Shown: piece by piece, positions 4,078 through 37,997 of the stretch
Position numbering within the stretch: the first letter of the stretch is position 1
How the letters are laid out: each line of letters opens with the position of its first letter
Assembly (NCBI GenBank): GCA_918797485.1
Contig: CAKKNE010000006.1
Span: 1,736,001 to 1,800,000, forward strand
DNA: 64,000 nucleotides
Origin: Pelagomonas calceolata
Lineage: Eukaryota
Direction of reading: 5' to 3'
Translations under genes and position numbers: made by a program
Notes under the pieces: model-generated
Databases searched by the model: none
Seen by the model: the letters and a program-made list of their open reading frames with translations, nothing else
What the model was told of the DNA's origin: nothing

Positions 4078-6893
4078 ATGGCGAAATTAAGCTACGGGGT
4101 TGTTGCTTCGTCTGGGTGTGATCCAGAATTCCCAGCAAGCGAGTTAAACGTGCATTCACCACAAACGCGTGGCTGGCAAACTTCGCGATTCTGCGAGCAA
4201 ATTACCGAGTCCCCCCCCCTCCCTTGAGCCACGGGGTGAACACAAAGGTACCCACAAGAGGTCACAATCGAATTAGCTCGGCCGGCGACAATATCTCAGG
4301 TTCAACTGTTAAGTCATCAGCACAAAATAGTTGTCATACTGAGTTAATGACACTTCGAGATTCATTCTTAGGGACTGATTAGGCAACTCGTGTTGAAATA
4401 TTCATCGGACCCAGAGCCGCCAACCTAGACGATGTGCTTTGGACGCGCTTAGGCTATCTATCTCTGGATCCAAATGAACGAAGCCAGTCGCCTTTCAGTG
4501 TGTACTTCGTGTCGATTCCCTCTTGAAAATCATCTAGGTATAAAGCGAGGGAGCTGAAGTCTGTGTACGTGAATGCGCGAGGCCAATACCTCAAACTCAT
4601 TATGCATCGCTGCCATGTAAACCAAGCCAACCTATTCAATCAGGTTGGCATTATCGCTTTGAATGTATTAGCGCGTTGTTGGGCTTGGCATGGTATAATT
4701 GCGTAATTTAGGTTATTGGGCACTTCACAGAGATCAAAAATCTATCTCGAGGCGCGTGTATTTCCCACGATGACCGTGTTGATGACCTTGCATTTGATTT
4801 TAATGTGCAGACAAAGCCATTTTCCATTTTCTTCTTTATAATTTACGATCTAGGTCGATCCACTGACTGCCAGGCAAATACGATCCCTAGTCGCAGCAAA
4901 AAGTGTTGCCATTGAGGCTGAGGATTTTGAAGCTGCAAAAAAGATTAAACTAGCAGAGCAGAGAATACAAACACTAGGCATTAAGCTTGCCCAAATTGAA
5001 ATCGCTAAACGCCGCGCTGTGCGAGATGAAGACTATGACCGCGCAAAACTTCTTAAGAAGGAGGTTTCTTCTCTGCGAAAATGTGTCAACGAAGCTGTGG
5101 GGCATTGTGATATTGACATGCACGTTGAACAACAGCAGCTAATGCCTCATTTATCTTCCAAAAACAAAGTTGCGCAAGATTTGGTGAGGCACAGCCTATC
5201 TAGTGAGCCGCAGCCTATTGTTGTTGTCCCTGAAAAGTTAGAAGAACAAAAGCAACTTGGGATGAACAATAGTGACAGTCACTTAGGAAAAAAGTCGGGC
5301 ATCTTGAAGACACCACAGTCACCACAGTACACTGGAGGGGAGGAGCATCGTGACCAGTCTAGTGATGTTTTTGAACACATTCAAGTCCGCACCACCCCCA
5401 ACATTCCTCCTTTACCACCCTCAATAGATTCAATGCCGCATTTCTCTGGGGCTCTCAGTGGCTTGCCAAATGTTGCTGAATTACCAGCGCCTGAAGCGTT
5501 TGCTGCTACCGACATTGTTGCAGATGCAGATTTTAGTGCTATTTCGGTATTCCTTGGTGAATACCGTGCTTGTTGTCTCATGTCGAAAAATTGGGCTTTG
5601 CGTGAAGCCGCTTTGGCCAAGACACGTCTACTTGTGAGCGAAGGCTGCTGGGGCCGATCTGAAGATATGGCGCATCTTTGCAGCATTGCCCGACTCGGCA
5701 TTCAGGATAAAGTTGCTCAGGTGTATTTGACTGCCTTGGCGCTCCTTGAAGACGTGATTCAGAAGTTTTCATGTCAAGACTTCAAATCCGCTGATATGCT
5801 TACTGCCATGGAACCTGCCTTAGATGCAATTGTGTCGAAGCTAGGCGACAATCAAGCTCGTCTCCGGGAGAAGGCTGTCGATGCGCTTGCCTCGCCATCT
5901 TATTGCCGGGTCATTGGTGCTCGTCAAATCGCAGCAAAAGTGATGCACTCCTTAGACAAGAAACGACCACCTCATAATAAGTGGCGCCCACTTGCAACAC
6001 GTCTAGAACTACTCAGGCGTCTAGCTCGAGAATATGGCTTGAACAGAGGGGTAGCTTCTGGAAATGGATTGCATGCTCTTGATCTTGGGTCAGTGATTGG
6101 ATTTGTTGAAATCCATGGATGTGCCTCTCACACTTTTGAGGAAGTTAGAACCGCAGCTAAAGATCTGATCGTGGAAATGTTCATTGCAGCATCTGAATCG
6201 GATCGACTTCAAGCACTTGAGCCTTTCCTTCATAAAATTCGACCGAGGCAGGCCGAGGAGTACCGAAACGCACTGACTCGAAGATTACAAAATATCGTGA
6301 ATAATGAGATCACTCATGAATCTAAACCAAGATATGACGTAACGATCTCGCCGCCTGAAGCATCTGCAGCTGACTCTATTTCATTGAAATCGCAGGCTGT
6401 CGGCCATTCCTCCCAAAGTTCTGTAGACGTTTCCACGCCACCAAGTCAAAATATTCAAGAGATACAGCAGACATCCACGTCCTTGATATTTACTTTTACT
6501 TCACACGATTACCTACGGGTGCAACACAGGTTATTGCGCAGCGAAGAGGAAGAGGAGCTCTTTCGCGACCAAATCATGAAACAGCTCGAAGAAAGAGCCT
6601 TCTCAGTAATTTGGATCTGTTTGAATAATTTAGTGAAATGTCGATCACCACGCTGTGATTGTAGGTTCAGGAAGCTTATGCAATCCTAAAACTACATTTT
6701 GATGATGCGGTAGAGAGTCCAGCGAAGGAAAATGTACTACGTGATTGGGTCAATGAGGTTTGTCCCATATATGGAGTTCTCGACACTGCAGACACTCTGC
6801 ACTACTATATAGGTCGGCATGGATATGCATGACAGAGGAGAGGATTCTCGCGACAGAACGTTGTGGGAAGTAGCGACGTGGCTCTTCCAGTAG
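4078..6893 (+). CDS. CEP104: Centrosomal/ciliary tip protein CEP104-like (jelly-roll N-terminus, coiled coil, TOG domain), multi-exon
   Basis: Spliced N-terminus MAKLSYGVVASSGCDPEFPASELNVHSPQTRGWQTSRFCE|YPQEV..LLSHQHKI|ATRVEI..LDPNERSQ|YKARELKSVYV..NLFNQVGIIALN. TOG motifs SKNWALREAAL and LGDNQARLRE. About 8 short introns; stop at 6891-6893. Confidence 0.88.
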
Positions 6894-12866: not shown

Positions 12867-13702
12867 CGTACAGTTGCCGGTGCACGCCTCTATAACAATA
12901 CCGTAGGTACCATGTAGGTACAAATACATATATATCCTTAGCAAGAGAACGCCGTAGCGTTGTATAATGTAGCAAGGGCCCTGGGCTGCCTCGGGAGAGA
13001 GTTTCGCGGTACCCGGCGTGAGTATTGGATAAAAGTTGGTCTATCATGATAGAGGCAAAGCCAATAGAACAACTGCGACAGTGCCAGTGTCCGAGTCACG
13101 GTATACTCAACTTCAATTCGAACTTGGACTCGGAATCGTAGTAGCCTGAGTGGGAAGATACATCCTTGGGAATAGGCTAGAGGGTTTCCTCTTTCTACTT
13201 CCTCTGGGCGGAACGTCCACCTCAGGCTATTCTGCCCGGGGCCCTGGGGCCACGGCGCCATGACTAGTACTAACCTCAGGCTGGGTCACGATACCGTATG
13301 ACCGTATAGCACTGCGGCGGCACTGGGCCCGGGTCTCCGAGTTCGGGTCCGAGTGCGACGTCTGTAATTATAGGACGGTGAATACCTGCGAATGAGGCAA
13401 GAACCAAAGGGGTACCACGCACCTTCAAGTTCGAGTTTCGGAGTCACGGTGCAGCGGCTGAGACGGTCCGCCGGAGAGTTCAAGTTACTAGTACCCTTCC
13501 GAGTCCGAGTCAAGTTCGAGTTAAGAATATGCGGCTCTTCTCAGGCTCAGGCTCGGGCTCCTTGAGATACTCCAGTACTAGTGCTCCCCGGGCTCTCTTT
13601 GGTTACAATTACCGAAGTACATGTACCGCAGGTACATGTACCTACGATACCTACCAGCTTGAGTACCGTAGGTACGTTCCCAGCGCACTTGTGTTGCTCT
13701 CA

Positions 13703-16700
13703 ATGTCCTCTCCGAAGATACGTTGGAACAAGCCTCGTTGTCACCCGAGTGACAGTGAGACAAAAAATGTCCCATGCGCACGCTCGGGTCACACCTTGTC
13801 GGTGATTGGCAACACTGGATTCCTGTTCGGTGGGCTGAGTGCAGGCTTGCATGACAAAATAGCACGGCCACTCAATGAATTACACATTCTTAAAATGGGT
13901 AGCTCAGAATTCGAGTGGTGCCTACTAGAGCTTGCTGATGGGCAAAAGCCTTTGGCAAGGTGGCGTCATTCTGCCAGCATCTATGACGGCACCCAAATCA
14001 TTATTTTTGGAGGATACTATACAGCCTCTCTCCGTCTGTCAGATGTGTGGGTGTTCGACACTGTCGCCATGGAGTGGCAGCAGCCGCATTTTGATCAAGA
14101 TCCTGGTTTTATCGCTAATGGTAGTCATCCTGCATCAAGCACTTGGCCAGGTCTTCCTGCCCCTCGTGGAGGTCATTCTGCAACTCTTATTGGGCATTCA
14201 ATGTTCATATTTGGCGGTTATGGCGGCCACGGTTCAATTTGGCGTCTGTTCTTTCTGTTCTTTGCTGCAATATACTTAATCGCTTCCGTGCCGCAGGTTA
14301 CGCAAGACGTGACCTTGATGATCTTCACTGCCTTGATGTTCGAGCGTGGACATGGTCGCGGGTTATTGCGAAGGGACGGTGCCCAGAGCGGCGCTCTGGC
14401 CACCAATCCTGTGCGGTTGAAGCATCATTGTTCATTCTGGGGGGCTGGAATGCATCACAACAGTTTGATGATCTTTTCATAATGGAAACTAAGCTGAATC
14501 CACCAGTATGGTCTTGTGTTGAAGGCTCTTTCTCGGCGCCGCGATGGAATTTCGCAGCCTGCTCTGTAATGGCGATTCCTGCTTGGAAAGTGTTTGTCTA
14601 TGGCGGTCTTGAGGGAGAGTTAGATGGTGATAACAATAGACAAGGTGTGCTTTGTGGGGATATCACTGTTTTAGATGCGGGCCTTAATCGCTGGACCTGT
14701 CCTTTAATTGATGGTCATGTCCAACCCAAAGCCCGTGCAGACTCAGTCCTCGTCTATGACAGCAAGTCTTCCAGGCTCATCCTTTTTGGTGGATGGGCAA
14801 ACGAGTGGCTAGGAGACATATTTACGCTTGATGTGGCACACTTAGTAGGTCCCCCATATGCAATCATGGATCTTTATCCTCAAACTGGGCCAATTACTGG
14901 CTCAACCGCTTTGCAAATCACCGGAATTGACTTTGTCAACACGAAAGACGTTGTCGTTCGTTTTTCTTCTCAGTTTGGCACAGTTGATGTGCATGGAGAA
15001 TTTCTCAGCAGCACGCAATTGGTCTGCACAGCACCAGACTTCAGTGCTTACCCTGCAGGTGCAGTTGATGTACGGGTTGCTCTAAATGGCGACAGCTTTA
15101 CCACGACATCTCAAGTTTATACATTTTTTGCTGTAACTAGTGCGCAGAATTCTCTCATATTTGGCCCAGGGCTTTTAAATGGCGGAGCTTGCAACGAAGA
15201 GACCATGTTTATTATCCAGGCCAAGGACAACTTAAATTGCAATCGTACAACGGGAGGCGATGAATTCATCGCGAGTATCAACCTTTTGGGCGGTGGTGAG
15301 AATGGTGAAGATGTGCAGCTTCGCAATGGCGTAGAAGTACGCGACAATGATGATGGAACCTACTATGTCGGTTTTACAGCTCCTTCTCCCGGAACTTATA
15401 TGGTAGCGGTTGAATTTTTAGGCACGTTTGGCGGCTCCCCGGGGCAGGTACGAGGGAGTCAGGTTAGTGTACATTTTGAGGAATTTGTCCCGAGATCGAA
15501 TAATGCAATGACAGGAAAGCTCGTTTCCTTGGCCGTGCAACAGGACATCCAAACTCTAGCGGCGTTCTGCAAGTCAGTTGCCACTGGTATCCAAGCAAAG
15601 CCTAGTGACAATGGCTGGACAGACTTACAGAATCAAGCAGCATTAGTATCTGTAAAAGAGCACCTAAATATGATCCAGGAAATGAAGCAAGAAATTGATC
15701 TTTTATTTGACCGTCTCGAATGCATTCTATCGCATCATAAAATGCAAGGTATCAATATTGGGCCACAAGAAAAACTAGTAGAATCGTACCGCACTTCTTG
15801 GGAAGCCTCACAGCGTGCAGCCCCGAGCATATTTCTCAAAATAGCTCCACTTGTTAAGGCTGAAGGCACTAGAACAAAGGGCGAGTTGCTGGACTATGAA
15901 GCTCGGGTGCGTGAATTCCAAAAAAGTGTTGAGTCTGCACCTTTTGTACTCTATGAAACAGGGACTTTCAAGGCTATGGAGCTTCTTTCTTTGATGATTG
16001 CTGCTTATGAGGAAGAAGAAGAGCGCTGCAAAAAAATGATTCACCTCTCAAAAATGTTTGAATGTCCAGCTGATGTAGCTACATCCAGGGACTTGCTTTC
16101 TTCTGCCGGGAGAATGCTGAAGAGTTATCAGGAGGTTTGGGCATGTGCGAGAGAATGTGATACTTATATTGAAGAAGCTGGCAATCTTCTTTGGGATGAC
16201 CTAGACGCAGATGGACTTGAGGAGAACGCAAGATTAATACTGACAAAGGTAAAGCAGCATCCTGCCTCTGTAAAGCAGTCGGATGCATATCTTGGCCTTG
16301 AGCGTACAGCAAAGGAATTTCTGATGACATGCCCGGTGATTTCTAGTTTACGACAACAAACTATGCGTGATCGTCACTGGGACGAGATAAGAAAGATCAC
16401 CGTGGTAAGCACCGTACTGGGACAACCTAGTGCTTTCCATGGGATGCGGTTAGCGGATGTTTTGAGCTTAAAGCTCCACCTGCACATAGCCGCTATTGTC
16501 GACGTTACTGACAAAGCCTCGCGTGAAGCAGCACATGAAGAAACACTACGGGCTCTTTCTATAACCTGGGATAATGTAGACTTTCGGGTGGTGTACTACA
16601 AAGACACTGATGTGCCTTTGTTGAAGATGACAGAAGATGATGTCGATCAATTAGAGGCTGACCAGCTTACGTTGCAGAGTATGGTCGCAAGCCGCTACGA

Positions 16701-19700
16701 TCACTTCAGAGCACAAGCAATGGAATGGCAACGCGCACTAGTTGCAGTTTCTGAAGTTGTGCAAATGCTATCCGACATACAACGCACGTGGTCCTACCTA
16801 GAGCCACTATTTATAGGATCAGATGAAGTGAGGCGGGAACTTCCCGAAGATGCAATGCGATTTACTATGATTGATGAGCAAGTTAGAAAAACATTAAAGA
16901 CAATGGCTGATGTTAAAAATGTCAAACAAGCATCTCAATATCGAGGGCTTATAGAGCGTCTTGACAGTATTAATTCAGACCAGGACCTTTGCAAAAAGGC
17001 ACTTGCAGACTTCCTGGCAGGGAAGCGTTGCAAATTCCCCCGGTCAGCACTCTCAGTGTCGTCGATCACACGATCACACGATCACACGATCACACCTGAT
17101 GTATAGGTTCTACTTCACAAGCAGCCACCCACGTCCATTGTTTCAGCCCAATCATAAGGAATATAATTCTTACAGGTGAAGCGGACCTTTTGGATATTCT
17201 TTCAAATGGGTCCTGCCCAGCAAAGGTTATGCGCCACATCAATAAAGTTCTTCTTGCAACAGCTAGCTTGCGTCTTGAAAGCTCGTCTGCAAGCAAGCCA
17301 CGTGCAATTAGTTTTATATCCGGCGTGGGCGAAGAGCAAGTGGATTTTGAGCCAGCCGTATCCTTGGAGGGCAAAGTAGAATTTTACATGCACACGATTC
17401 TCACTGCTCAGCGAGACACATTACAAAAGAACCTTGAGAGATCCCAAAAACGTTACCCTCTGAGACCAAGAGCAGAGTGGTTACTGGAATCAAATCCAGC
17501 TGGTTACTCACTAGATCCGGCACAGATTGCAATATTGGTTGCAAGTATTCAATCGGTCATGGTAATCGAAGGAGCCATGGACAATAATACACTTGTACTA
17601 TACTCTGATCGACAGAAGCAAGATCTCATCGATCTAGTCAGGCTGACACAAACAAACCTGAAGGGTAGCGAGCGACAACGCGTGATGTGCCTAATTACAA
17701 TGGATGCACACACGCGCGACATACTTGGTAAATTAATCAAAGAAGTCTCCGTTGACAAAAATGATTTTCAATGGCAGTCACAACTCAAGCACCGTTTTAT
17801 TGAGAAAGAAGAAGCTGGCCTAGTGGTTGCTTTGACAGAGATACATGTTTGTGATGCTCGTGCGGATTGAGCCTCCTGGCACCCGAGTCTTTTCAGGCCT
17901 TGAAACTGTATATATTCCTTTGCTTGTGTTAGGATTTAGCTATGGTCTGGAATATCTCGGAAATGGTCCCCGCCTTGTCGTTACTCCGCTTACAGACCGG
18001 TTTTATGTCACTGCGACGCAAGCACTCCATCTAAAAATGGGTTGTGCACCCGCGGGTCCTGCCGGGACCGGTTTTCAAGATTAGTGTTTTATTCGAGTTG
18101 GTAATTGAGTGCAAATCTATCAATCACTAGGCAAAACAGAGACAACGAAGGATCTTGCATCTGCGTTAGGAAAATGTTGCTACGTATTCAATTGTCAAAT
18201 GACAGTGCCTATGTCAATTGTCGATTATCCACGTGTTTATCTGAAAACCCAGGTTCTCCGGAAATGGACTTCCAATCACTAGGCAACATTTTCAAGGGAT
18301 TGGCTGCAAGTGGCTCGTGGGGCTGCTTTGATGAGTTCAATCGACTCATTCCTGCGGTTCTTTCTGTGTGCACTGTTCAGTTTAAGGCTGTCTGCGAGGG
18401 CAACGCTCGCTTCGAGCACAATGAAGTCACCACTCACGTCATCTTGATTGAGGGTGACCAGGTCGACCTAGATCCGACTTGCGGCGCATTTATTACAATG
18501 AACCCGGTAAGAAATCATACATTTCTACTGGCGGTGAGGACTTCACGTGGCAGGGATATTTGGGGCGCTCGGAACTGCCTGAGGGTCTCAAAGCTTTATT
18601 CCGCCCCATGACTGTAATGGTGCGTGCGTGTCCTTGCGAAACCCCCACGCCAAATTTTTGAGTTCTAGGTGCCAGATCTAGTGTTGATATGTAGAGAATT
18701 CGCGTCTATATTCAAGTTATGGCTTTCTTACATCTGATACTATCCTTCTCCAGGCGAAAACATGCTCATGGCCGAGGGATACGTAAGTGCTCGAAGCTTA
18801 GCATCAAAATTCTATGGGCTATATTCATTGCTGCGTGATTTACTTTCGAAGCAGTCGTATTACCTACATTGTTGTCCTATGCACATTAGCACAACAAATT
18901 CAACTTGATAGGCATTATGACTGGGGTCTGCGCGCTGTGAAATCAGTCCTTGTCGTTGCAGGGCAGCTTAAAAGGGCCGAGCCAGAGCTGCCAGAAGATC
19001 AATTGTTGATGCGTGCCCTTAGGGATTTTAACATCCCTAAAATTGTCCAACAAGACGAAATCGTGTTTTTTGGTGCGTGATGTGCTTTGTATTTCATGCT
19101 CAAGCTCAGCAAAAACAGGTCTGCTTAATGACTTATTTCCCGGTGTCAATCCACCACGAGTAGTAGACTCGAGCCTTGCCACTTCAATCATCAAAGCCAT
19201 CGAAGAATCTGATCTTTGGCCTGATGAACATTTTACTCTCAAAGTTGCGCAGCTCGACGAACTGTTGGCGATCCGGCATTGTGTTTTTGTCATGGGCCCT
19301 GCAGGTGCTGGGAAATCAGTGACATGGAAGATGCTGGCCCGCGCACGTGACGATAAAGACCCACAGCAAAAAGTTTATATTGCACATCTAAATCCTAAGG
19401 TGATTCCAACTGAAGTTTTATATGGTCACATCATGCTTCAATCACGTGAATGGAAAGATGGACTGTTGAGTTCAATTATGCGAGACCTTGGACAACTTGA
19501 AGATGACAAACCCAAATGGTACGTGCACTCTCCCATTTAATCACAATCATACGCCCCCAGGATAGTGCTTGATGGTAAGTGAATCACTCGTCTGACCTTC
19601 CCGCCCCCCTTCGCTGCAAAGAGCTATCAAGATGCGCCCCACGCCCCCTTTATCAGACGTGAGGTAGCATTGTGTTTTAAGGTGATCTTGATGCAAATTG

Positions 19701-22700
19701 GATTGAGTCAATGAACTCCGTATCAGCCAGTGTCCACCTTGAGTGTAGTATGCACTAAAATATTATTCGCCACTGCAGGTAATGGACGACAATAGAATGC
19801 TTACCCTAGCGTCCAATGAACGTATTCCCCTGAAGCCATGTATGCGGATGTTGTTTGAAATCCGTGACCTTTGTTTTGCCACACCAGCAACAGTAAGCCG
19901 GGCAGGGATTATTTACATAAGTTCCGACGACGGGAATCTGTGGCATTCAATGATAGCCTCATGGGTACAGTCACAGCCGGATGAAGTTTATTCGGCACAA
20001 AGCAAGTCGGCGAGATGCGACGTTGATTTTGGTCTTGATCCTTGAGACACATCTTCTTTACAATCAGGTATTAAGCGACCTTTTCCAGAAGTATGTTTTG
20101 CCAAGCTTGAAGTACTTGCGTGACAACTCAAAAGCAGTCGTCCCTATTGTGGACATGGCGTTAGTCTCAGGACTTTTGAAAATGCTAGAAGGCGCAATTG
20201 TTGCTGAGACCGCCAACGACCGATTCAAATTAGAAATGGTTTTTGTTTTCTGCGCTATCTGGGCATTTGGATCTGCACTTACTTTGTCAGATGACGGTCA
20301 CGACAATCAGGCGGATTTTAGTGAGTGGTGGAAATCTCAATTCAAACAAGTGCGTTTGCCAACACGCGATACTGTGTTTGACTACTGGCTTGATCCAATC
20401 TCGAATAAATTCGAACCATGGCGACAGAACCCTTCATTTCATGCAGTAAATTTTGACTCGCGTACAGCTAAAATGAATGAGGTCACAGTTCCCACAACTG
20501 AAACAGCCAGTATTTGTCATTGGATCAACCTTCTCGTTCAGTGCCGCCAACCTGTGCTGCTTGCTGGGCCTAGTGGTCGACCATGAGATGCTAAGCTAGG
20601 CAAAAGAGAGTCTATTTCTTCTGGCCATTGCTGTGGTGCACACTTCTTCGTTCAGGTACTGGGAAAACGCAACTCGTCACCGGCATACTGCGCGAATTAC
20701 TTCCTACTGAGTTTTCGAGTGTGGGCATCAATATGAATTATTACAGCACGGCAACCATTCTAATCGGCTCATTGGAGGCGCCACTTCAGAAAAGAACCGG
20801 GTCAACATATGGAGCTCCTGGCTCAACTCGACTAATATATTTTATTGGTGCGTGCTGGTTTCATTTGATACCAATGCCATTCATTGTGTGTAGATGACTT
20901 AAACCTACCGTGCGAACCACTGCCGCGAAGAATACTCACCTTTTTCTGTTGTCGAGTGGGAAAGTAGTCGCTGGGGTGGTAAGCACCGCATGGTACTACA
21001 CTGCTAGGCAGCTAGATAAATACAATACACAATCTGCAATTGCCCTGATGCGCCAACACCTGGACTATGCCGGCTGGTATGATCCAGTCAAGCTCACCCT
21101 CAAGAGTGTAATTGATTGTCAATACATGGCATGCATGAACCCAACGGCCGGATCCTTTTTAGTCAATCCGCGTCTTCAACGGCACTTCTCAACTTTTGCC
21201 GTTGGCATGCCAAGCGCCACCAGTCTGTTGACAATATTTCAGACCTTCCTGGATGGACACTTTCAAGCTGAGCAATTCCCAGCCAATGTGTGCAATCAAG
21301 TATCAAATCTCATCAAGGGGGCACTTGCATTACATAAAGAGGTACATGATACTTTTCGTAAGACGGCGTCAAATTTTCATTATGAGTGCAATCCAGTGTC
21401 ATCACGTATTATCTGGGCCACACTACTTTATGGTCTGCTCTTCACAGGTTCAATGTGTGCGCATCGGTGTCCAGACGAGTTTCCCGCGGCAGCATGAACA
21501 CACAGACGTCACCTGGCAAGCGTCTTTGGAGGTCTGTTACTCGCTCGCTCCCATGTTGCGCAATTTACTATACCAGATAGTATTGTATTTCTCTGGATCC
21601 ATGAATCTGAGCGAACTTACGGCGATAGACTTGTCTGCGAATCAGATGTCTTGCGATTTCGGGCAATCCTTCAAAGCACGGCCAAAAAGGCATTCCCAGC
21701 AGTAGGAACAGCCCACCTCTGGGGAGATCATGCTACAACTCCCCTATGCTTTTCTCATTTCCGCGACGTCGCCACCCTTGATTCTCCAGCATACGGGCTA
21801 GTAGAAGATATTGATGCACTACGGAACTGTTTTGAGCGGGTCCTCCGCGATTATAACGAGTTTCATCCTGCTATGGATCTTGTTTTGTTTAGAGACGCGC
21901 TCTTACACGTGGCGCGAATCACGCGAACCATATTTCAGCCCGGGGGGCACATTCTTCTAGTTGGTGTGGGTGGAAGTGGCAAGCAAAGTCTTGCGCGCCT
22001 ATCTACTCACATATGTGGCCATGCGTTGGTGCGCATATGCATAACCTCAAGTTATGGACTTGGGGACTTTAGATTGGATCTGCAAAGCATGCTCACTCGT
22101 TCTGGCACAAAACCGGAGGGCATCGTCTTCTTATTCACAGACTCTCAGATAATCGACGAAAAGTTTTTGGTTTATCTTAATGACCTACTCGCTGGGAGTA
22201 TTCCTGATTTATTTAGCAAAGACGAACGAGATAACTTGGCATCAATGGTGGAGGGTAAAGCGAAAGCAGCGGGCCTTCCCGCAGACACTGCATCATGTTG
22301 GGAGTATTTCTTAACACAAGTTCGAGCCAACCTTCATGTTGCTGTGTGCTTCTCTCCAGTTGGCCCTGATTTTGGGACCTATGCAAAGCGTTTCCCAGCA
22401 CTCATTTCTGGAACCACAATCGATTGGTTTCAACCCTGGCCGAACGATGCTTTGGAATCTGTAGCTGAGAAGCAGCTAAGCGATGTAGAATTCAAATCAC
22501 CTGCCCTGCGATCTGCAATTGAGAGATTTATGCCTCTGAGCTTTGAAATGGCAACTAAGGCGGCTGTGCGCTACAAAAGAGAAGAGGGCAGATTTGTTTA
22601 CTTAACGCCAAAGAGTTATCTTGAAATGCTTGCCTTGTACCGCACACTTCTATTGCGTCGGCGTGAAGAGAACGAGACCGCAACTATGCGCTTGGAAAAC

Positions 22701-25700
22701 GGAATATCACGCTTACGAGAAGCAGCTTCCGCCGTCGGAACACTTGAGCTGGAATTAACAGCAATGGTACAAGCAGCTGATGAAAAACGAGAGCACAGTG
22801 AGGCTATCGCTGCGAGGGTGGCATCTGAAAAGATGATTGTGGAGCGAGAGACAGATAAGGCAAATAGCGAGGCTGCGAAAGTGGCCAACATTCAAGGAGA
22901 AGTGCAGCTCCAGAACGAAGATGCCGAGCGTGACTTGCTTGCTGCTGAGCCTGCAATTCGAGCTGCCACCGCAGCTCTTGATACATTAGATCGACGAGAC
23001 CTAGGTAGCTGCAAGACAATGGCCACCCCGCCGAGCGGCGTTGAAGATGTTTTTAGTGCAGTCTGCGTGCTGTTGGCTGGGATAAACCCAGCAATTGCCG
23101 TCCAGCGCAATGGCAAGGTGAAAAAGGAGGGTCGCAGTTGGGATGCGTGTAAAAAGTCACTGCTCGGTAATATCAATGGCCTAGTTGACGAACTGAAGCA
23201 GTATAAAGCTCTTATAGATAAAGAATGTGTCCCAAAAATTAATTTTAATGAGGTAAGACCATACCTGCAGATGGACCACTTCAATGAAGATGCAATGAAC
23301 AAAAAAAACTCAGCGGCAGCAGGCCTGGTAAAGTGGGTTGAGAATATTGTTCGTTATTATGACATCTGGCAAGATGTGGAGCCTAAGCGTATCAAAGTTG
23401 TTGAGTCAACACGCCAGCTAGAAGCAGCTAACTCAGAGCTAGCTGTGGTGCGCGGAAGAGTCAATGAACTCCAGGCACAACTGCGACAACTTACTTCTGA
23501 ATTTGAGCAAGCTGAAAAAATTAAAAGAGAAGCAGTAGATATTGCAGAAAAGGGCCAACTTAAGCTCGAATTAGCCCAGCGCTTGATCAATGCTCTGGGC
23601 TCTGAGGAAGTAAGATGGGTAAAAGGCGTGGAGCGATTTCGTTTCGAACGAGACCCACTGGTTGGAGATGCTCTTGTGGCGGCTGCATTTATTTCGTTCC
23701 TTCCAGAGTCTCATGTTTTTCTTTGCGTGAATTAGGAAGCCCAAGCGTGACTTGCATTTCAGGTATTGTAGTTTGCGGTGCACTGAGTATTATTGTTTTT
23801 GCCAGCAGCAAAAAAAGTGACTTTTGAAATCAACTTCACTTTGTCAGACCCGCATCACCACACACAATTTTCACTTCGTGCGATACATCGCATTCATCAG
23901 TATACTTTAGGTGGCCCATTCAACAAAAAGTTTCGAGATGAACTTCTCCTCGAATCGTACATACCGTATCTACAAGTAGCTGTAGCAGGCAATTCTGTGC
24001 CCATGCGCCAACTCGATGCTACAACAACAGTTGTGACCTTAATTGCCACTGAAGCGGACGTCGCAGGCTGGAATTCCCAGGGACTCCCCCGTGATCCGGT
24101 CTCCTCCGAGAACGGTGCTATCGTCACTGCCTCAACGCGCTGGCCACTAATGATTGACCCGCAGCTCCAGGGGGTAGCCTGGGTCAAGGCACGGGAATCT
24201 GGGCGTTTGCAGGTACAGAGACTTGGACAGACAGAGTTGATACCTGGGCTGCGATCAGCTATGGCTGGAGGTACTACTATTCTTATTGAAAATATTGGAG
24301 AGCAAATCGACGCAGTCCTGCTGCCCCTCCTGCAACGCGCGATCTTGACAAAGAGAGACCATCAATATATTGCCCTCGGCGATGATGAGGTAGAATATTC
24401 TCCAGGCTTTCGACTTGTCCTACACACAAAACTCTCAAATCCGCCAAACCAGCGCATTATAATTTCCCTCGTAACCACGTCATTGTATCCAAATGGCATT
24501 TAGGCACTATCCTCCAGAGTTGCAGGCCGAACTGACGCTTGTAAATTTTACGGTTACACCCCTTGGGCTGGAAGACCAATTGTTAAGCCTTGTAATCAGG
24601 AAGGAACGCCCAGACCTGGCAGCCAGGAAAGCAGCTGTGATCCACCAAGCGAATGAATTTAAGGTCAGAATCAAACAACTTGAGGATGACATTCTAGTGA
24701 AATTAAGTACAGCAGAAGGTGACATTACAGAAGACCGCGCGCTCATTGAAGGATTAGAGAGCGCCAAGCAACAGAGCCTGGACGCATCGGCAAGACTCAG
24801 TGAAGGGAAGGAGATCAGCACTTCCATCAACAAGACTGCAGAAAGATACCGAATGGTAGCAAAGCGAGGAGCCACGATTTTTTTTCTGATGAATTCCCTA
24901 CACTGCATCCACACGTAATTTGGACCTGATACTTCACTACCGCGATCGCGTGTAAAATAGGTACTACATTTACAGCTTGAATTCATTTGTGGTTATGTTT
25001 CTGCATGGCATTGAACTAGTGCATGATACAGAGCGCAAAGCCAAAGCACCTAAGAAACCCAAAACCATGCTTTCTAAATTAAAATCAGTGACTGCCAAGA
25101 TCATTCAAATGCAACGATTCAATTGGAATGAGGATCTACTCCATCAATCTTTTCTTGCAGGAAAACAGGATTTCCTTTCACTCAGCACACGAGCACTTGA
25201 GAAGAAGACCGCGGAAGAAAAGAATGACGTTTCAGAGGAGGACTTCAATCATAGATGCTTGAGTCTTACAGCTTCGATCACGTCGGTTCTTTTCAGGTAC
25301 ATAGAACGTGGAATTTTTGCTCGTGACCTGCTTACAGTGGCAACACTTCTTTCATTCGCAGTAGCCGAAGCTTCAGATACGCTCGAACATTCTTTATTTC
25401 TTTGTTTGCTTTCGCCCGTCAAAGCCCAAGGGGGAGCTGCTGGAGGCATGACTGAAGATGTGGGCGCTTGGTTACCAGTATTGGTTTGGTCACAAATCAA
25501 GGGATTGGAGAAAGGGGCTGTCGAAAATATTGGATTGGTTGCATTTGAAGGGCTGGGGGATCAAGTGAATAGTGATCCAGATGGATGGCACAAATGGTAT
25601 GAGCATCCAAAACCAGAAACGCAGCCACCACCAGGGGGTTTAAAGTCTATTACTGGGATCTCTATGCTAATTTTACTACGAACTATGCGGGCTGACAGAA

Positions 25701-27730
25701 TCCCAGCTGGACTACAAGCCTATGTTGCATCTATGCTAGGCCCCGCTTTTTCTGAGCCACTGCCTTTTAACATGCTGGACACATACACAGAAAGTTCGGC
25801 CTCGACTCCAATTTTTTTCGTGCTTTTCCCCGGTGTAGACCCTACACCCTGGGTGGAGTTGCTGGGGTCAAAGTTTGATGTCAACTTGCGGAAAGGGACA
25901 CTCAGAAACATTTCTATGGGCCAAGGACAAGAATCACCCGCGGAAGCAACGCTTGATGTGATGGCAAAGCAGGGAGGTTGGATCATGCTTCAGAACATAC
26001 AGCTGATGGAATCGTGGCTGCGCAGATTAGAACGCAAGCTCGAACTGGCCAGCGAAGCAGCTGCGATGAATTTTCGTTGTTTTCTTAGCGCAGAGCCTCC
26101 GCCGCTCCCACATCTCTGTAACATCCCTGAAAGTCTCTTACAGACTTGTATCAAAGTGGCAAATGAAGCACCAGCAGACTTCAAGTCAAATCTGCAACGT
26201 GCATGGGCCTGTTTTTGTCAAGAGCAGCTGGATGATTGCAATCATGCAACGGAATTCAAAAAATGTCTTTTTGGTCTATGCTTTTTTCATGCCCTGATAC
26301 TTGGCCGCCGTCGATTTGGTCAACAAGGCTGGAGTCGTGCATATGGATTCAACACAGGGGACTTGAAAATATGCGCAAATGTACTAACAAGCTATCTGGA
26401 TGCGGCACCCGAACACGCAGAGGGGGGAGGTGTCTTGGTTCCGTGGGACGATCTTCGTTACATATTTGGTGAAATTATGTATGGAGGACATATAACAGAT
26501 TTTTGGGATCGTAGAACAAATGTTTCATACCTGCAGTTTTTTTTTAACCAGAAACTCTTGGAGTCAGGAAAACATCTTGCCCCAGGATTTCCACTGCCAA
26601 ATGGCAACTTAGATCACCAAGAATACGCCACTTACATTGAAAAAGCGCTCCCCATAGAAACACCTGTCGTTTTTGGCCTTCATCCTAACGCGGAAATCGG
26701 ATACTTGACATCTACAGGCGAACAAATTTTGGGGACTGTGCTACGCTTGCGCAAAGGCGGAACTTCAATCCCGGATGGGAGTATTGCAGTTGGGGGTGTG
26801 CGTGAGATCCTGGATTCACTAGTAAAAAGACAACCAAAATGCTTTAATCTAATATTGACTCATGAAAAAGCCAAGCCACTTTTGACCAAATCGGTTGCCC
26901 CCTACGTTGTTGTTGCCACTCAAGAGGCCACGCGAATGAATCTTCTTGTTGAAGAAATTTCTCGTAGTCTTGGCGAGTTGCACAAAGGCTTAAATGGCCA
27001 ATTGAATATGTCCCAACAGATGGAAGACCTATCCACGGCATTGTCGCTTAATGAGGTCCCAGGCCGCAATCCATTTCACTTAGCATCTTGGGAAAAGTTT
27101 GCTTGGCCCAGCAGAAAAAATCTTCAGCATTGGTTTTGTGATTTAGAGCGGCGCATCGAGCAACTCGTGAATTGGGAAGAGAGACTTGAATTACCTCGGT
27201 CTTTGTGGATGAGTCTGTTCAACCCCATGGCATTTCTCACAGCTGTACAGCAGGTTGTGGCTCGAAAGCGAAGTCTGCCGCTTGATAATATGACTATTTC
27301 CACCGACGTCACGATATATCGTCGCCCGGAAGACCTCAACTCCTTGATAAACGAGCCATCAGATGGCGCTTTTATTCACGGACTATTCATGCAAGGCGCA
27401 CGATGGATGACAGTCGAGGAAGCAAGCGCAGCAAATCAAACTAGGCTAACTTCTGGTGTAAAATGTGCCGGTGTCATAGTCGACAGTCATGCCAAAGATC
27501 TCCTGCCTCCGATGCCCGTTTTGTATGTCAAAGCGGTCTCTGTTGAAGCAGAATGGGAACCCACGTCAATCGGTTATCTACGTCCAAACATGTACAATTG
27601 CCCATGTTATTATACTAGTTTCCGTGGTCCCACGTATGTATTTCTTGCCACTTTGGACACAGAAGAACCCGCCACTAAGTGGATCAATGCCGGTGTAGCT
27701 TTGTTGTTGAGCTCAGACGATCACCTCTAG
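13703..27730 (+). CDS. Axonemal outer-arm dynein heavy chain with N-terminal Kelch repeats, IPT/TIG and filamin-type Ig domains (alpha-HC/ODA11-like), about 25 exons
   Basis: Kelch repeats (ARSGHTL..FLFGG, ARWRHSA..IIFGG, PRGGHSA..FIFGG), IPT ([10 protein letters not shown]) and filamin ([15 protein letters not shown]). Motor motifs: P1 [81 protein letters not shown]. Confidence 0.95.
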
Positions 27731-33636: not shown

Positions 33637-33912
33637 GGATACTAATCAAGCCCGGCTATATTAATCATACCCTTGTTAATCCTGCCTGGGAATCATATCA
33701 AAGGAAGATAGGATCAAAATCAGAGGCTCTAGGCCAGCAAATAGATTGCGGGTGTGCACGGGACTAGCCATTTATGTCCGCAGCGTGACTACTAGTCCCA
33801 CTTTGACGACCACGAGAACGGGGATGGTGTTGGCGGCCCCCGGGCCCAAACACCTGACTAGCCAAAGTTCTTTCTTTGTGCGGGGCGCGCCCGGGCTGCT
33901 AGGTTCCCACTT

Positions 33913-34150
33913 ACCTGAGGGGTTATTCACCCCTGGCGCCGCCTGAAATAACCCGGGTAATTACCGGTTAGTACGGGTTATTTACCTCAGGATCTTATAG
34001 AGGGGTAGGGGAGGGGCCCAATGGGCCATTGGCGCGGGCTTGGCGCACCTGCACGTATCCAAAGGCACAATGGGGGCTACTTGCGCCCATCCGCTCGCCC
34101 GGAGGGGTCATTTTCGCTAATCACACTCAGGCTAAACGGGCCCGGGTTTT
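33913..34150. repeat. Repeat family D, inverted copy
   Basis: Reverse complement of ~28195-28460 with short insertions (CTCAGG at 34126, CCCGGG at 34141). Confidence 0.85.
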
Positions 34151-34480
34151 GCTTTGCCAGCCCGGGCCTGAGTGCATCGCCCTAACTTGAACCAAACGAA
34201 AGCGTGTCGTGCGTCGTTGCTGTGGGCGAAACGCCGACGAGGAGGCGCTGTTTGGAGCAACCTGACGAGCACATAGGCTGTGGAGTCTAAGACAAAGCTA
34301 AAGATAAATCACTGGCGATTGAGCCCCGACTCGGACTCGGAGCCTCCAGAGCTCGCGGGTTTCCACGTCGATAGCCTAGGGCCTGAGTGAAAACCGTTTA
34401 GTGATTAAGTACCGTGACCGGGTTATGACCGGCGGGTTATTCACCCCAGATCCCCCCGGCCCCGGCGGGCCGGGCCTCAT

Positions 34481-34773
34481 GAAGCCTATCACTTGTCACA
34501 TGGACTTTGCCTGTGAATAAACTGAGTTGATACATCCTCTAGTGGAAGCGCATCTAGTGGACGCTCGCGCCCAGGGGGAGTAGAGAGAGAAACCTACTAG
34601 CCCTTCCTACCCTAGATATGTATCTCCCACTCTCTAATATTTGAGTCTATACATCGAGTGTCAAAAGCACTACGGTGTAACAACAGTTCACTATAAAACA
34701 CTCTCGCAGTCAGGCCTATCAGCTCTAAGCTGGTTAGCTAGGACCCTGCTACTTACATAACGCTGCGACATAC
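34481..34773. repeat. Repeat family A, copy 2
   Basis: Colinear with 3677-3997. Confidence 0.9.
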
Positions 34774-34857
34774 TCTTGCTACGTAGGTACCAGCAAGTAC
34801 CAGGTAAGCACAAGCCCTACCCGTAAATAGCTAGTCCGCTCGCAGGACCCAGTTGAC

Positions 34858-37165
34858 ATGACATGGGTGTCACGGTCTCTTCGCCGACTTCTTATATCTT
34901 CCTCTGTGTACCGTGCGAGCACGTCTTGTCCGAACCAGTGTAGCGGCCACGGCGAATGCACAGCCGAGAACGTGTGTTTGTGCGATACTGGTTGGGCATA
35001 CTATGCTGACTGTTCTGGTCGTGCGGCGACGGCGCCCTTATGGGGTACACTTATTATTTAGTGAAGAGTACTCACAGGTCTTTGTCCAATTGCTACTGCG
35101 TGGGTCGACAAGGCTAGCGCTCCCGGCAGGGCGCATGGTGACATGGAATGTGGAAACATAGGCGTATGTAATCGGAACGACGCATTTACCTGCGCACAGA
35201 TTAGTTATGTTGATTGCTTGCGTGATTTTGGTTTTTAGGGGAGTTGCTCATGCCCACCTGGTTTTACGGGTGAAGCTTGCCAGCGCTGTCCATCCCCAGT
35301 GTTACTAATTTATCTAGATGTTAGATGCCAATACCGTAGTTGAATGTCCTCAAGAGTGCAGCAACTATGGCAACTGCATCACTATGCACCATGCTGCACT
35401 AGACTACGGCCCTGGGCAGGGCATGACCCAGCTTGATGATGTGAATGACATAAAGGGCCCTTTATACACCAATTGGGAAGCAGAATCTCTTATGATGTGC
35501 GCTTGCGATTGGGGGGTATTTGGGCCTGAGTGTGAGGCACGCATGTGCCCCAAAGGTTTCGATCCTCTTCTGAGAAGTACTACGACTTACTATCGCGAGA
35601 TTAACGTGACAACAAATTCAACAGCAGTAGGATCAAGCATCAATGGAACGTTCGTGATGAGTTTCAATGGGTTTGACTTTGAGTTCAACGCCAATGCAAC
35701 ACTCTTTGGCGAGGCAGAATGTGAAGCAGCCTGGGAATCGCTAGACAATGTTGAGCAAGTAGTTTGCTTTCGTGGTGCCATAAATCAAGCAGGGGGTGCT
35801 ACTTACAACATTAAATTTCTAGCTTGGCCTGCAGTCCCAATGCAGAACAATATCTTTAGCCACGAGGGCAATCCACCGCTCACAGCTTTTACGTGTGACG
35901 CATCTGATGCCAGAGTCTGGCCACGTGGCGGCGGCAACGTCGCTGCATGTCATGTTGAGGATGTTGCGAATACTGATATTCGCGAGTACAAGTTCTGCAG
36001 CGGCCGCGGTACCTGCGACTTTTCTACTGGATCATGTAGCTGCTATGCTAATTTTGAGGGTGTTGCTTGCGGCAGCAGTATTGCCACTATTTCAGAGGAG
36101 GGCGTTGATGTGTTGCTACTGTATGCAACTGAGAATTCATTTCAAAATACTCTGCTGAAGTTAGACGCTACTGCTAATCCCTCAGACTCGTTTAATTTTC
36201 TTGAGATTGTTTCTGGTAGTAGTGAGGTGACCATGTTTACAATCGAAGGGGACGGGGATATCACGGTTGCTAAGGGCGATGTGAAGATTCTCACGGGCGA
36301 ACTATCGTTATACTCCGGTCTTCGGATCATTGATGGAGGCGCAAGTATCACAACAGGGGGTCTTCGCGTCCTCTCCGGAGGTACTACGATCAATGAAGGT
36401 GGCCTAAAAGTTATTGGCAATACGCTTTTGTGGGGCAATGTTTTAGCTCACAACGGATCATACATTTTCTCCTCGAATGCAAGCGGACACAACGATGGAA
36501 GTATTATGGAGGTTCGTGCAACACAGGACGCATTTGCTGGTGCTGTTCTTGAAATTGGCGCAGACCGCAATAGGTCAGACTCTTTCGACTTATTTCGCGT
36601 AACAGTAGACAACGGACCATCTTCTCGTGAAGTTTTTGCTATCACAGGTCAGGGTCGCACCACAATCAAGCATGGCGGTCTCACCGTGACGGGAGCTGCT
36701 GTTGTCAAGTCTGGCGGTCTACTAATTGAAGCCGGTGGCATAACTATCACATCTGGTGGTCTGACTATCTCCAGTGTTGGTATTACATCTGCCGGCTCCA
36801 TCACTGTGACCACTGGGTCCATCACGGCTCCATCGATAATCAGTACCGGCGGAGTATCTGCTAGCAGTTACACAACCACTTCAGACGGACGTTACAAGAC
36901 AAATGTCACTTCCCTGCGGAATCGTGCTGCTCGCTTGCTGGAATTAAATGGCGTGAGCTTCCAATGGCGAGGCGATTCTGGGTTCGACAAAGAGACTCAT
37001 TTTGGATTCATTGCCCAGGAGGTGGAGCTTGTTTTCCCAGAAATTGTCAGAGAAAGCAGTTTTGGCATCCGTTCTTTGCAGCTCGAAGCGATTGCGCCCC
37101 TTCTCGTTGAAGCCTTTCGCGCCTTGCACCGCCGCTTGACCATTCTTGAACGTAGACTTCGTTGA
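34858..37165 (+). CDS. Secreted EGF/tenascin-like (mastigoneme SIG/Ocm-type) protein with Gly-rich beta-repeat region and C-terminal peptidase S74 (intramolecular chaperone) domain, 4 exons
   Basis: CPNQCSGHGEC..DCSG|LCPIATAWVD..ECGNIGVCNRND|GSCSCPPGFTGEACQR|..CPQECSNYGNC..CPKGFDPL..CSGRGTCD; then (GGLxIxxG)n repeats; then SDGRYKTNV..LNGVSFQW..GFIAQEVELVFPEIV..IAPLLVEAFRAL and a coiled-coil end. Confidence 0.85.
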
Positions 37166-37377
37166 TCTGAGCACGCTTTTGGACGTCTTTCAGAAGGGGA
37201 AAGTAGGCGCGGGGATGTGGTGCTCTGAGTCAGGGCCGGCGGCTGTGGGGATCCGGAGGGTCATGTGATGAGCCCCCTACAGTAAATTCAGTGCCAGAAT
37301 CTCCAGCAGGTAAATTTTCCAAGTGGGTCCGCGCAAACCCGGGATTAGGGGAGCCTGTGATGCATAGGGAAATAGAG

Positions 37378-37711
37378 ACGGGGGCGGACCCCAAATTTGA
37401 GATTCGAGTTCCCAGCCACTTGTCCAAGCGCGATTTTGGCTAAGGGGTCCCAAAGGGTCCCTTTGTACGCCCCGAGACCGGACTGGGGGGGAGGGGTCAC
37501 TTTCGAGGCGAGACGCGGTCGCGAAGTTGCCCATCTGGGGCCTAACGTGCGGGTATTTCAGGGACCTCTGGACTGAAAAATCAAAACTCGCTTCTATGCT
37601 GGTAATTTGGTCTCCCAGGGGCCCTCGGGTACCTATGGCGTGGGGCGGATGCGTAGGCGCGGCCGGGTACCCGATGGGCTGCCAGATAGGTCGCCTGACG
37701 CGGCACGAAAC
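37378..37711. repeat. Repeat family C, inverted copy
   Basis: Reverse complement of 28477-28810. Confidence 0.92.
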
Positions 37712-37997
37712 GCCACTGGCGCGACCTTCGCAGGCCACTAAAATTTCCAAACCTAATCGTTTCGCTTACCCGTTTCGGTCACGTCCTAGAGGGGTAGGGA
37801 GTCCCCTCTGGCTCAATTCGCGATCGCACCAGACGTCTAGTTATAGAGATACGGCAAATTTGGTCTCTCTCGGTGTCCGCTGGGGGCCCGGGCTGCGTCA
37901 ACGACGCCTGCGCGGGTAACTACTACGCATTTTTGTAGGTACTGGTGGAAGGTCAAAATTTCAGGGCGGACGCATGACCTTTTGGCGAGAGTTTGGT

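What the first reader, a model, noticed from the sequence alone, without database searches (positions are those of the whole stretch)
34858..37165. Mastigoneme-type EGF protein fused to a phage-tail-fibre-like beta repeat and S74 autocleaving chaperone
Seen: N-terminal Cys-rich EGF modules in the spacing typical of stramenopile SIG/Ocm mastigoneme proteins, then GGLxI/VxxG repeats (~36250-36870), then SDGRYKTNV..GFIAQEV..LLVEA (36881-37165) with the Ser/Lys dyad intact. Established: S74/ICA domains trimerise triple beta-helix phage tailspikes and MYRF, then self-cleave at the Ser of S-D-x-R-x-K. Inference: a trimeric secreted fibre, possibly a flagellar-hair filament, assembled using a phage-type chaperone.
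Basis: partly seen in the sequence, partly recalled or inferred. Interest (0 to 1): 0.7.

Follow-up and report, generated by a model that had tools for sequence, protein, structure and literature searches.

The report
Flagellar-hair subunit with self-cleaving viral fibre
A marine alga's spliced gene joins a complete flagellar-hair-type building block to a virus-like fibre stalk and a self-cutting assembly domain; the same fusion occurs from water moulds to algae, and it likely forms a three-chain end piece or fine filament of the stiff hairs that these organisms swim with.

Summary
RNA contigs from 4 runs (3 studies) show one spliced transcript, with a poly(A) tail in 2 of them, encoding 713 aa. 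The N-terminal half is a whole tubular-mastigoneme-type subunit: the family profile covers PDB 9UFE chain BA 5-363 of 366, E 7e-66. A 270-aa Gly-repeat stalk and a Peptidase_S74 domain with intact Ser/Lys follow. Stalk plus S74 is predicted as an intertwined trimer (0.89, best control 0.12; possibly from memory of solved fibres). The fusion recurs in oomycetes, a xanthophyte and pelagophyte-like sequences, and head plus stalk in bolidophytes; stalks run 248-2302 aa. A published table counts no S74 domain in 5 non-flagellate downy-mildew assemblies and 3-13 in 4 zoospore formers (one lineage contrast, confounded by viral inserts). Best reading: a trimeric end piece or filament root of the flagellar hair (0.55). 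Location, cleavage and secretion are untested, this copy's signal peptide is weak, and its stalk (~19 nm) is far shorter than a terminal filament. Ten paper searches found no description, but the 9UFE paper was not available. The scan noted similar fusions in two other genomes.

The parts
34843..37299 (+). Spliced, polyadenylated transcript (5' ends of contigs 34828-34843; poly(A) after 37299)
   Evidence: tables 5, 7, 8
34858..35020 (+). Coding exon 1: 23-aa leader (weak signal peptide) and most of EGF-like module 1
35021..35077 (+). Intron 1, 57 nt, GT-AG
35078..35181 (+). Coding exon 2: linker and start of EGF-like module 2
35182..35238 (+). Intron 2, 57 nt, GC-AG
35239..35287 (+). Coding exon 3: end of EGF-like module 2
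35288..35339 (+). Intron 3, 52 nt, GT-AG
35345..35548 (+). EGF-like module 3 with long loop (residues 108-175), as in 9UFE chains
35552..35986 (+). Alpha/beta insertion domain (residues ~177-321); aligns with the same place in 9UFE chain BA; predicted fold like a domain of mycobacteriophage Bxb1 tail-tip and capsid proteins
   Evidence: Z 12.7, rmsd 2.1, 104 aligned
35996..36070 (+). EGF-like module 4 (residues 325-349); 9UFE chain BA ends here
36071..36880 (+). Stalk, residues 350-619: two ~55-aa knob units (about 36101-36265 and 36503-36670) and 7-residue Gly repeats; predicted triple beta-helix
36881..37165 (+). Peptidase_S74 intramolecular chaperone (residues 620-713): Ser620, Asp621, Lys625, G-F-I-A-Q motif at 661, C-terminal heptad helix; stop codon

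Best explanation
The gene encodes one 713-aa protein made of a complete mastigoneme-type subunit, a Gly-repeat stalk and an S74 chaperone, which likely forms a three-chain end piece of the tubular flagellar hair. Shown: the domain order, the single transcript and the conservation of the fusion. Inferred steps: (1) the leader takes the chain into the ER, where hairs are assembled; (2) three S74 domains trimerise through their C-terminal helices and zip the stalk into a triple beta-helix; (3) Ser620/Lys625 cut off the last 94 residues; (4) the three heads join the lattice of related shaft subunits at one end of the tube, and the stalk projects as the root, or in species with long stalks a large part, of a fine filament. 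Stalk length (248-2302 aa in the family, roughly 17-160 nm) would set how far it projects.
For: Head: the family profile aligns without a break to 9UFE chain BA 5-363 of 366 (E 7e-66); all six 9UFE chains score E 4e-45 or better and the next hit (teneurin) is 2e-8. Trimer: score 0.89, best of 3 controls 0.12, runs agree in at least 97% of contacts, partner pLDDT at least 90, closest inter-chain contacts mostly n to n+6/7. The tool's mark was reached by 21 of 30 solved pairs and 0 of 23 single chains (eukaryotes 17 of 29, only 1 of 7 without an older solved relative); the counts hold only roughly for three copies and the pass may be from memory of solved fibres. S74: Pfam; top Foldseek hit MyRF ICA 7DC3 (E 0.011, prob 1.00); heptad a/d positions 8 of 8 hydrophobic in the best of 7 registers. 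Catalytic motif kept in 31 of 31 loci with a downstream S74 and 104 of 107 distinct head+S74 proteins, the other 3 mis-parsed (P0124 is intact); many rows are near-copies. Range: named head+S74 proteins in Phytophthora, Pythium, Aphanomyces, Achlya and Tribonema; named heads with stalk in Triparma, Tetraparma, Chrysophaeum and Plasmopara; Aureococcus in the cluster of P0006. Fibre-bearing heads (54 rows) are one side of a branch against 5 fibre-less rows (SH-aLRT 99). PF13884 counts 0,0,0,0,0 in Peronospora and Hyaloperonospora assemblies against 6,7,3,13 in Plasmopara and three Phytophthora (PMC6264045 supplement); only Plasmopara among those downy mildews has flagella. A Phytophthora head query returned Plasmopara but no named Peronospora, Hyaloperonospora or Bremia among 35 hits. 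The window itself encodes a dynein heavy chain and a CEP104-like protein.
Against: No localisation, proteomic or cleavage evidence for any member. None of the six 9UFE chains (209-748 aa) matches the stalk or S74. The stalk here is about 19 nm (estimate), whereas terminal filaments measured in open-ocean heterokonts are 0.3-0.4 um. This copy's leader is weak (1.57). The downy-mildew contrast is probably a single loss event, counts all S74 proteins, and may include polinton-like virus genes, which carry S74 fibres and occur in oomycete genomes. No diatom, brown-algal or eustigmatophyte member was named in any search, though these were capped, word-limited and mostly unnamed. S74 is dispensable in some paralogues: 8 of 38 loci with at least 2 kb downstream end after 322-336 aa without it, and 3 more are still open at the locus end. 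The search of the P. parasitica zoospore proteome supplement found no S74 label. Tip against base against side cannot be told from sequence.
Confidence: 0.55

Rival explanations
1. It belongs to the hair but elsewhere: a base anchor, a nucleating trimer that starts tube assembly in the ER, or (in chrysophytes) the lateral hairs.
For: Same head homology and co-occurrence data. A short 19-nm stalk suits an anchor or seed. Two paralogue sets appear in oomycetes, bolidophytes and pelagophyte-like sequences (support 94), enough for two ends of a tube. Ochromonas hairs carry lateral filaments of two sizes (PMC2108286 abstract).
Against: In the passages seen, lateral hairs are listed only for Chrysophyceae and Synurales, while Pelagophyceae have bipartite or tripartite hairs (PMC6492006); the family is in oomycetes, bolidophytes and pelagophytes too. 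No transmembrane segment in the protein (best 19-residue hydropathy 1.26).
Confidence: 0.2
2. It is a secreted trimeric adhesin or surface fibre of the motile stage that reuses the mastigoneme fold as a head but is not built into hairs.
For: Viral S74 fibres are attachment proteins. Stalk length and C-terminal end vary widely, as in adhesins. The fusion is not among the 9UFE chains. Anything specific to zoospores would show the same loss in downy mildews.
Against: The head is a whole shaft-type subunit with its cysteines and the W-x-D-K linker kept from oomycetes to algae, which suggests conserved lattice contacts. There is no recognisable receptor-binding domain at the stalk end: after cleavage the chain would end in plain repeats.
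Confidence: 0.2
3. The fusion is an assembly chimera, or an endogenous viral fibre gene lying next to a host mastigoneme gene.
For: Repeats flank the gene; polinton-like viruses in protist genomes carry S74 fibres.
Against: Single spliced contigs span both halves in 3 RNA runs; DNA contigs of other studies are colinear; head and S74 lie in one open frame in 31 loci; the neighbours are RPB2 and RPN1; only 2 viral contigs matched, over the last 105 residues alone.
Confidence: 0.02

Closest known systems
Tubular mastigoneme proteins of stramenopiles (PDB 9UFE chains, OCM3/5/6; PnMas1-3; Sig family)
   Same: Leader, three EGF-like modules, insertion domain and a fourth EGF-like module in the order and length of 9UFE chain BA (366 aa) and similar to chain EA/OCM5.
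   Different: The known chains end after the last EGF module; here 364 more residues follow (stalk and S74). No member of this subfamily is shown to be in a hair. Identity to 9UFE chains is low in the insertion domain.
Phage tail fibres and tailspikes with a C-terminal S74 intramolecular chaperone (K1F endosialidase 3GW6, 3GUD, T5 L-fibre 4UW8, 6F45)
   Same: S-D-x-R-x-K at the domain start, G-x-I-A-Q motif, C-terminal helix, upstream beta-repeat stalk; PHROG tail-fibre families match at E 2e-20 to 1e-6; structural matches Z 6.3-7.4.
   Different: Intron-containing nuclear gene of a eukaryote, with a disulfide-rich secretory head and no enzyme or recognisable receptor-binding domain.
MYRF/MrfA ICA domain
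   Same: Eukaryotic S74-type domain with Ser/Lys dyad, working in cellular proteins (PMC3742443, PMC8326128 passages); best Foldseek hit 7DC3.
   Different: [quoted passage not shown] Here the S74 is C-terminal, has no membrane anchor and would act inside the secretory pathway on a long structural stalk.
Fibre proteins of eukaryotic DNA viruses (polinton-like viruses; chlorovirus P22, PDB 8H2I)
   Same: Large modular fibres ending in PF13884 (PMC12220804 passages); the first knob unit matches 8H2I chain cU 1064-1121 at E 3.5e-5 and chlorovirus models (E about 0.009).
   Different: No virus genes nearby; host gene between RPB2 and RPN1 with a mastigoneme head.

Membership tests
Peptidase S74 / ICA | Profile match above the curated cut-off | tested here: met
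   PF13884 59 bits against 22, E 5.6e-16
Peptidase S74 / ICA | Catalytic Ser and Lys five residues apart, followed-by-Asp Ser | tested here: met
   Ser620, Asp621, Lys625; same spacing as MYRF S578, D579, K583
Peptidase S74 / ICA | C-terminal trimeric coiled coil | tested here: met
   Predicted helix ORF 589-614; 8 of 8 a/d hydrophobic in the best register; helix residues in the predicted trimer interface. Prediction only
Peptidase S74 / ICA | Autocleavage before the Ser after trimerisation | not testable with these tools
   Needs expression or proteomics
Triple beta-helix fibre | Three chains interdigitated with a short repeat | tested here: met
   Predicted: score 0.89, best control 0.12, n to n+6/7 inter-chain contacts (may be from memory); lag-7 Gly periodicity, 0 of 2000 shuffles
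Tubular mastigoneme (MAS/Ocm/Sig) proteins | Three to four EGF-like modules in the family's order, with homology over the full subunit | tested here: met
   Profile A4 7-343 against 9UFE BA 5-363, E 7e-66; window ORF alone hits all six chains at E 1e-10 to 4e-7
Tubular mastigoneme (MAS/Ocm/Sig) proteins | Signal peptide, no transmembrane segment | tested here: inconclusive
   35 of 37 family leaders hydrophobic (the 2 misses lack their N-terminus); the window's leader has the usual position and length but scores 1.57; no strong 19-residue segment. No signal-peptide predictor was available
Tubular mastigoneme (MAS/Ocm/Sig) proteins | Same fold as the solved 9UFE chains | tested here: inconclusive
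   Head model pLDDT 89.9; 9UFE was not listed in either structure search and may not be in those libraries
Tubular mastigoneme (MAS/Ocm/Sig) proteins | Restricted to stramenopiles with flagellate stages | tested here: inconclusive
   All named members are stramenopiles; most rows are unnamed; Aureococcus is non-motile in culture (recalled); absence in non-flagellate downy mildews rests
Tubular mastigoneme (MAS/Ocm/Sig) proteins | Located in the flagellar hair | not testable with these tools
   No localisation data found; orthology of the P. parasitica candidate PPTG_16769 could not be checked
MYRF family | Ndt80-type DNA-binding domain before, and transmembrane segment after, the ICA | tested here: not met
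   No such Pfam match; protein ends with the S74 helix

The most novel reading that the evidence does not exclude
This family supplies the so far unidentified fine filaments or end caps of the tripartite hair that defines stramenopiles: early in their history a mastigoneme subunit was fused to a virus-derived self-cleaving fibre, lineages tune filament length by adding 7-residue repeats, and two ancient paralogues serve two filaments or the two ends of the tube. The shaft subunits' own insertion domain resembles a phage tail and capsid decoration domain, so the hair may be partly built from viral parts.
Probability: 0.4. Interest if true: 0.88.

Novelty: new variant of a known kind. Interest (0 to 1): 0.72.

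Why it matters
Tubular hairs reverse flagellar thrust and define the stramenopiles (diatoms, kelps, oomycetes, many marine grazers). Shaft proteins are known, but the role of the terminal filaments is described as unclear (PMC9310263) and I found no protein assigned to them. A conserved gene that is half shaft subunit and half trimeric fibre is a concrete candidate that can be tagged or knocked out. It would also be a use of the phage-type self-cleaving chaperone in a eukaryotic host protein apart from MYRF, this time in the domain's original job of folding a fibre and inside the secretory pathway.

Tried and rejected
No whole genome is held for the window, so copy number and the other hair genes of this organism could not be checked. 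The monomer model of the 615-aa ORF was poor (pLDDT 57.5); its beta-solenoid matches were not used, since the stalk is predicted to fold only as a trimer. ESM Atlas hits were all under 0.9 and are leads only. The S74 tree (93 rows, 101 columns; 46 of the 92 non-family rows kept) is unresolved: 7 changes against 31 shuffled, and one clade is not rejected (p-AU 0.68) but not shown; no MYRF or polinton-like virus rows were in it, so no donor is claimed. In the head tree P0138 was dropped for lack of a head match. Supplement searches for S74 labels in the P. parasitica and Aurantiochytrium proteomes found none; the labels there are coarse, so this is not absence. The Cafeteria preprint text has no relevant passage and its supplements were not seen. 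RNA runs X15 and X16 hold the gene unspliced, which may be DNA in the library, and were not used as expression evidence. Hee 2019 and Harada 2026 are not held; the 9UFE paper was not found. Literature searches without a paper linking mastigonemes to S74: (listings capped at 20-40 rows). The knob and repeat part alone matched no PHROG family under E 0.3. Rejected: separate genes, chimera, endogenous virus, MYRF orthologue.

Full report
Gene and host. The window is eukaryotic: RPB2 lies upstream and RPN1 downstream of the gene, and it also encodes a dynein heavy chain, a CEP104-like protein and a light-harvesting protein. The closest named relatives are Aureococcus anophagefferens (member of the cluster of P0006, 70% identical to the ORF) and Chrysophaeum taylorii (46%), and the head tree groups the window with them at SH-aLRT 100. 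A ciliated pelagophyte is inferred. Four metatranscriptome runs from 3 studies all skip 35021-35077, 35182-35238 (GC-AG) and 35288-35339. Single contigs run from about 34840 to 37299 in X18, X19 and X20, and two end in poly(A). The joined frame is 713 aa without internal stop, with an in-frame stop upstream at 34828. DNA contigs from two runs not marked as the source are colinear over the gene.

Head. The exon-4 ORF hits the six chains of PDB 9UFE, named tubular mastigoneme protein or OCM3/5/6, at E 1e-10 to 4e-7. A profile of 11 family members aligns in one stretch, positions 7-343, with chain BA 5-363 of 366 (E 7e-66); the best hit outside 9UFE is teneurin at 2e-8. So residues 24-349 are a whole subunit of the chain-BA type: leader, three EGF-like modules, an insertion domain and a fourth EGF-like module, at which the known chain ends. 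A model of the exon-4 part of the head from 78 sequences has pLDDT 89.9. Its insertion domain matches mycobacteriophage Bxb1 tail-tip protein 9D93 Ma (Z 12.7, rmsd 2.1, 104 aligned), Bxb1 capsid 9D9W (9.2) and phage Patience 8GIU (8.2), with sheath proteins below; 9UFE was not listed and may not be in the structure libraries. Leaders: 35 of 37 family proteins scored have an 8-residue hydropathy of 2.0 or more, the 2 misses being truncated; the window's 23-residue leader scores only 1.57, and a related leader is kept in loci 90% identical. Secretion is inferred from the family.

Stalk and chaperone. Residues 350-619 hold two ~55-aa knob units and Gly repeats with lag-7 periodicity (0.41; 0 of 2000 shuffles). 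The first knob matches chlorovirus P22 (8H2I cU, E 3.5e-5) and, weakly, a streptococcal phage tail-fibre lyase (Z 5.6). Residues 620-713 match PF13884 (E 5.6e-16), with Ser620, Asp621 and Lys625 spaced like MYRF S578, D579 and K583, whose roles I read in passages of PMC3742443 and PMC8326128. Three copies of ORF residues 288-615 were folded without the alignment: score 0.89 in three runs, best of 3 controls 0.12, at least 97% of contacts shared, pLDDT at least 90, and closest inter-chain contacts mostly n to n+6/7, as expected of an intertwined beta-helix. The tool's mark was reached by 21 of 30 solved pairs and 0 of 23 single chains, on eukaryotes by 17 of 29 but only 1 of 7 without an older solved relative; the counts hold roughly for three copies, and like complexes are solved, so the pass may be from memory.

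Family. A profile of insertion domain, EGF4 and first knob found 26 of 77 hits above 230 bits, 20 of the 26 with PF13884, then a gap to fibre-less relatives at 123 bits or less. Of the best 150 representatives at 50% identity, 79 have the head with an adjacent knob and 30 of these an S74; many are fragments. Named head+S74 proteins come from Phytophthora pseudosyringae, fragariae, idaei, cactorum and rubi, Pythium oligandrum, Aphanomyces euteiches, Achlya hypogyna, Tribonema minus and one EukProt entry without a stated taxon; heads with stalk but no S74 in the listed model come from Triparma (3 species), Tetraparma, Chrysophaeum, Plasmopara, P. infestans, P. ramorum, Nothophytophthora and an entry labelled GSMAST32. 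No diatom, brown alga or eustigmatophyte was named. In 80 metagenome loci (the best 80 of 123), 31 have an S74 downstream in the same open frame, all 31 with Ser and Lys; among the 38 with at least 2 kb downstream, 27 have it, 8 end after 322-336 aa without it and 3 are still open. Across 107 distinct proteins with head and S74, many near-copies, the stalk is 248-2302 aa; at 0.48 nm per 7 residues (recalled strand spacing) that is about 17-160 nm, and 19 nm here. Fibre-bearing heads form one side of a branch against 5 fibre-less rows (99), and two paralogue sets are suggested in oomycetes, bolidophytes and pelagophyte-like rows (94 for one set). The fusion therefore probably predates the split of oomycetes and ochrophytes (inference). 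The S74 tree does not name a donor.

Link to flagella. In a supplementary table of PMC6264045, PF13884 counts are 0 in five assemblies of Peronospora and Hyaloperonospora and 6, 7, 3 and 13 in Plasmopara halstedii, P. infestans, P. ramorum and P. sojae (p 8.7e-7 by the authors' chi-square). [quoted passage not shown] This fits, but it is probably one loss event, it counts every S74 protein, and polinton-like viruses with S74 fibres occur in protist genomes including oomycetes (PMC12220804 passages). In the P. parasitica zoospore proteome (PMC12223298, supplement rows) a 1061-aa tenascin-like EGF protein, PPTG_16769, has 22, 12, 14, 18 spectra in cell-body and 28, 24, 44, 48 in flagellar fractions; I could not test whether it is the orthologue, so it is a lead only.

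Mechanism. Known S74 domains trimerise, fold the beta-helix upstream and cut themselves off. Applied here, this gives a rod with three shaft-type heads at one end. Each 9UFE protein is deposited as 3 chains; whether that reflects three-fold symmetry I could not check. Hairs are assembled in the perinuclear space and end in one to three terminal filaments (PMC2108286, abstract only), measured at 0.3-0.4 um with an unclear role in open-ocean heterokonts (PMC9310263 passages). A 19-nm stalk cannot be such a filament alone, so I favour an end piece or filament root (0.55) over another position in the hair (0.2) and a non-hair surface fibre (0.2).

Novelty. Ten searches of the held literature found no paper linking mastigoneme proteins to S74. 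The 9UFE paper, Hee 2019 and Harada 2026 were not seen and could mention such proteins; for the last two I saw only citing passages. UniRef already labels some members 'Peptidase S74 domain-containing protein'. The scan's earlier notes e1-7134731 and e1-7171631 describe mastigoneme-head fibres with other end pieces in other genomes; they agree with my reading, which I had stated before seeing them, and I did not test their loci. PMC4576200, PMC5756292 and PMC6492006 were read as passages for background. Verdict: a real, conserved and apparently undescribed variant of the mastigoneme family, with a testable role; interest 0.72.

Noticed in passing
window 35182-35238: GC-AG intron confirmed by RNA contigs; all three introns are 52-57 nt with weak donor sites.
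   Followed up: partly
window 33870-34830 and 37340-37990: Non-coding flanks hold dispersed repeats: very high summed contig depth with many loose ends, and 16-mers that recur in the window (189 of 635 downstream).
   Followed up: partly
window 37251: A 12-base insertion in the 3' UTR is present in 6 of the 8 runs laid: a population variant.
   Followed up: no
window 13382-27730 and 4854-6689: Dynein heavy chain with N-terminal Kelch, TIG and filamin domains, and a CEP104-like gene: the host is probably ciliated.
   Followed up: no
L023:2025-2990, L028, L032:6709-7716, L033; P0300, P0333, P0341: Paralogues with the same head and stalk end in a different short helical domain instead of S74; weak hit to a phage head-fibre family (phrog_6994, E 0.064). 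End pieces seem to have been swapped.
   Followed up: partly
L059:3852-9845 and L071:1876-4846: Very long stalks: 1998 open residues ending in S74 (L059) and more than 990 residues of a near-perfect 14-residue repeat (L071).
   Followed up: partly
window 35552-35986; P0137: The insertion domain resembles a domain of phage tail-tip, capsid and sheath proteins, and in the fibre-less PITG_15241 type it matches PHROG major tail protein (E 3e-11) and tail sheath (E 7e-9) families.
   Followed up: partly
P0121 and P0122 (Triparma retinervis jg12443, jg12444): The two paralogue types have consecutive gene numbers, each on a contig of 5105 bases, so they are probably neighbours.
   Followed up: no
PMC12223298 supplement, PPTG_16769 and PPTG_14518: Two secreted EGF proteins in the P. 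parasitica zoospore proteome (1061 aa tenascin-like; 812 aa labelled protein autoprocessing) are candidates for family members; sequences not available here.
   Followed up: no
P0006, P0009: Two different paralogues share an identical C-terminal stalk end and S74: gene conversion or an assembly join.
   Followed up: no
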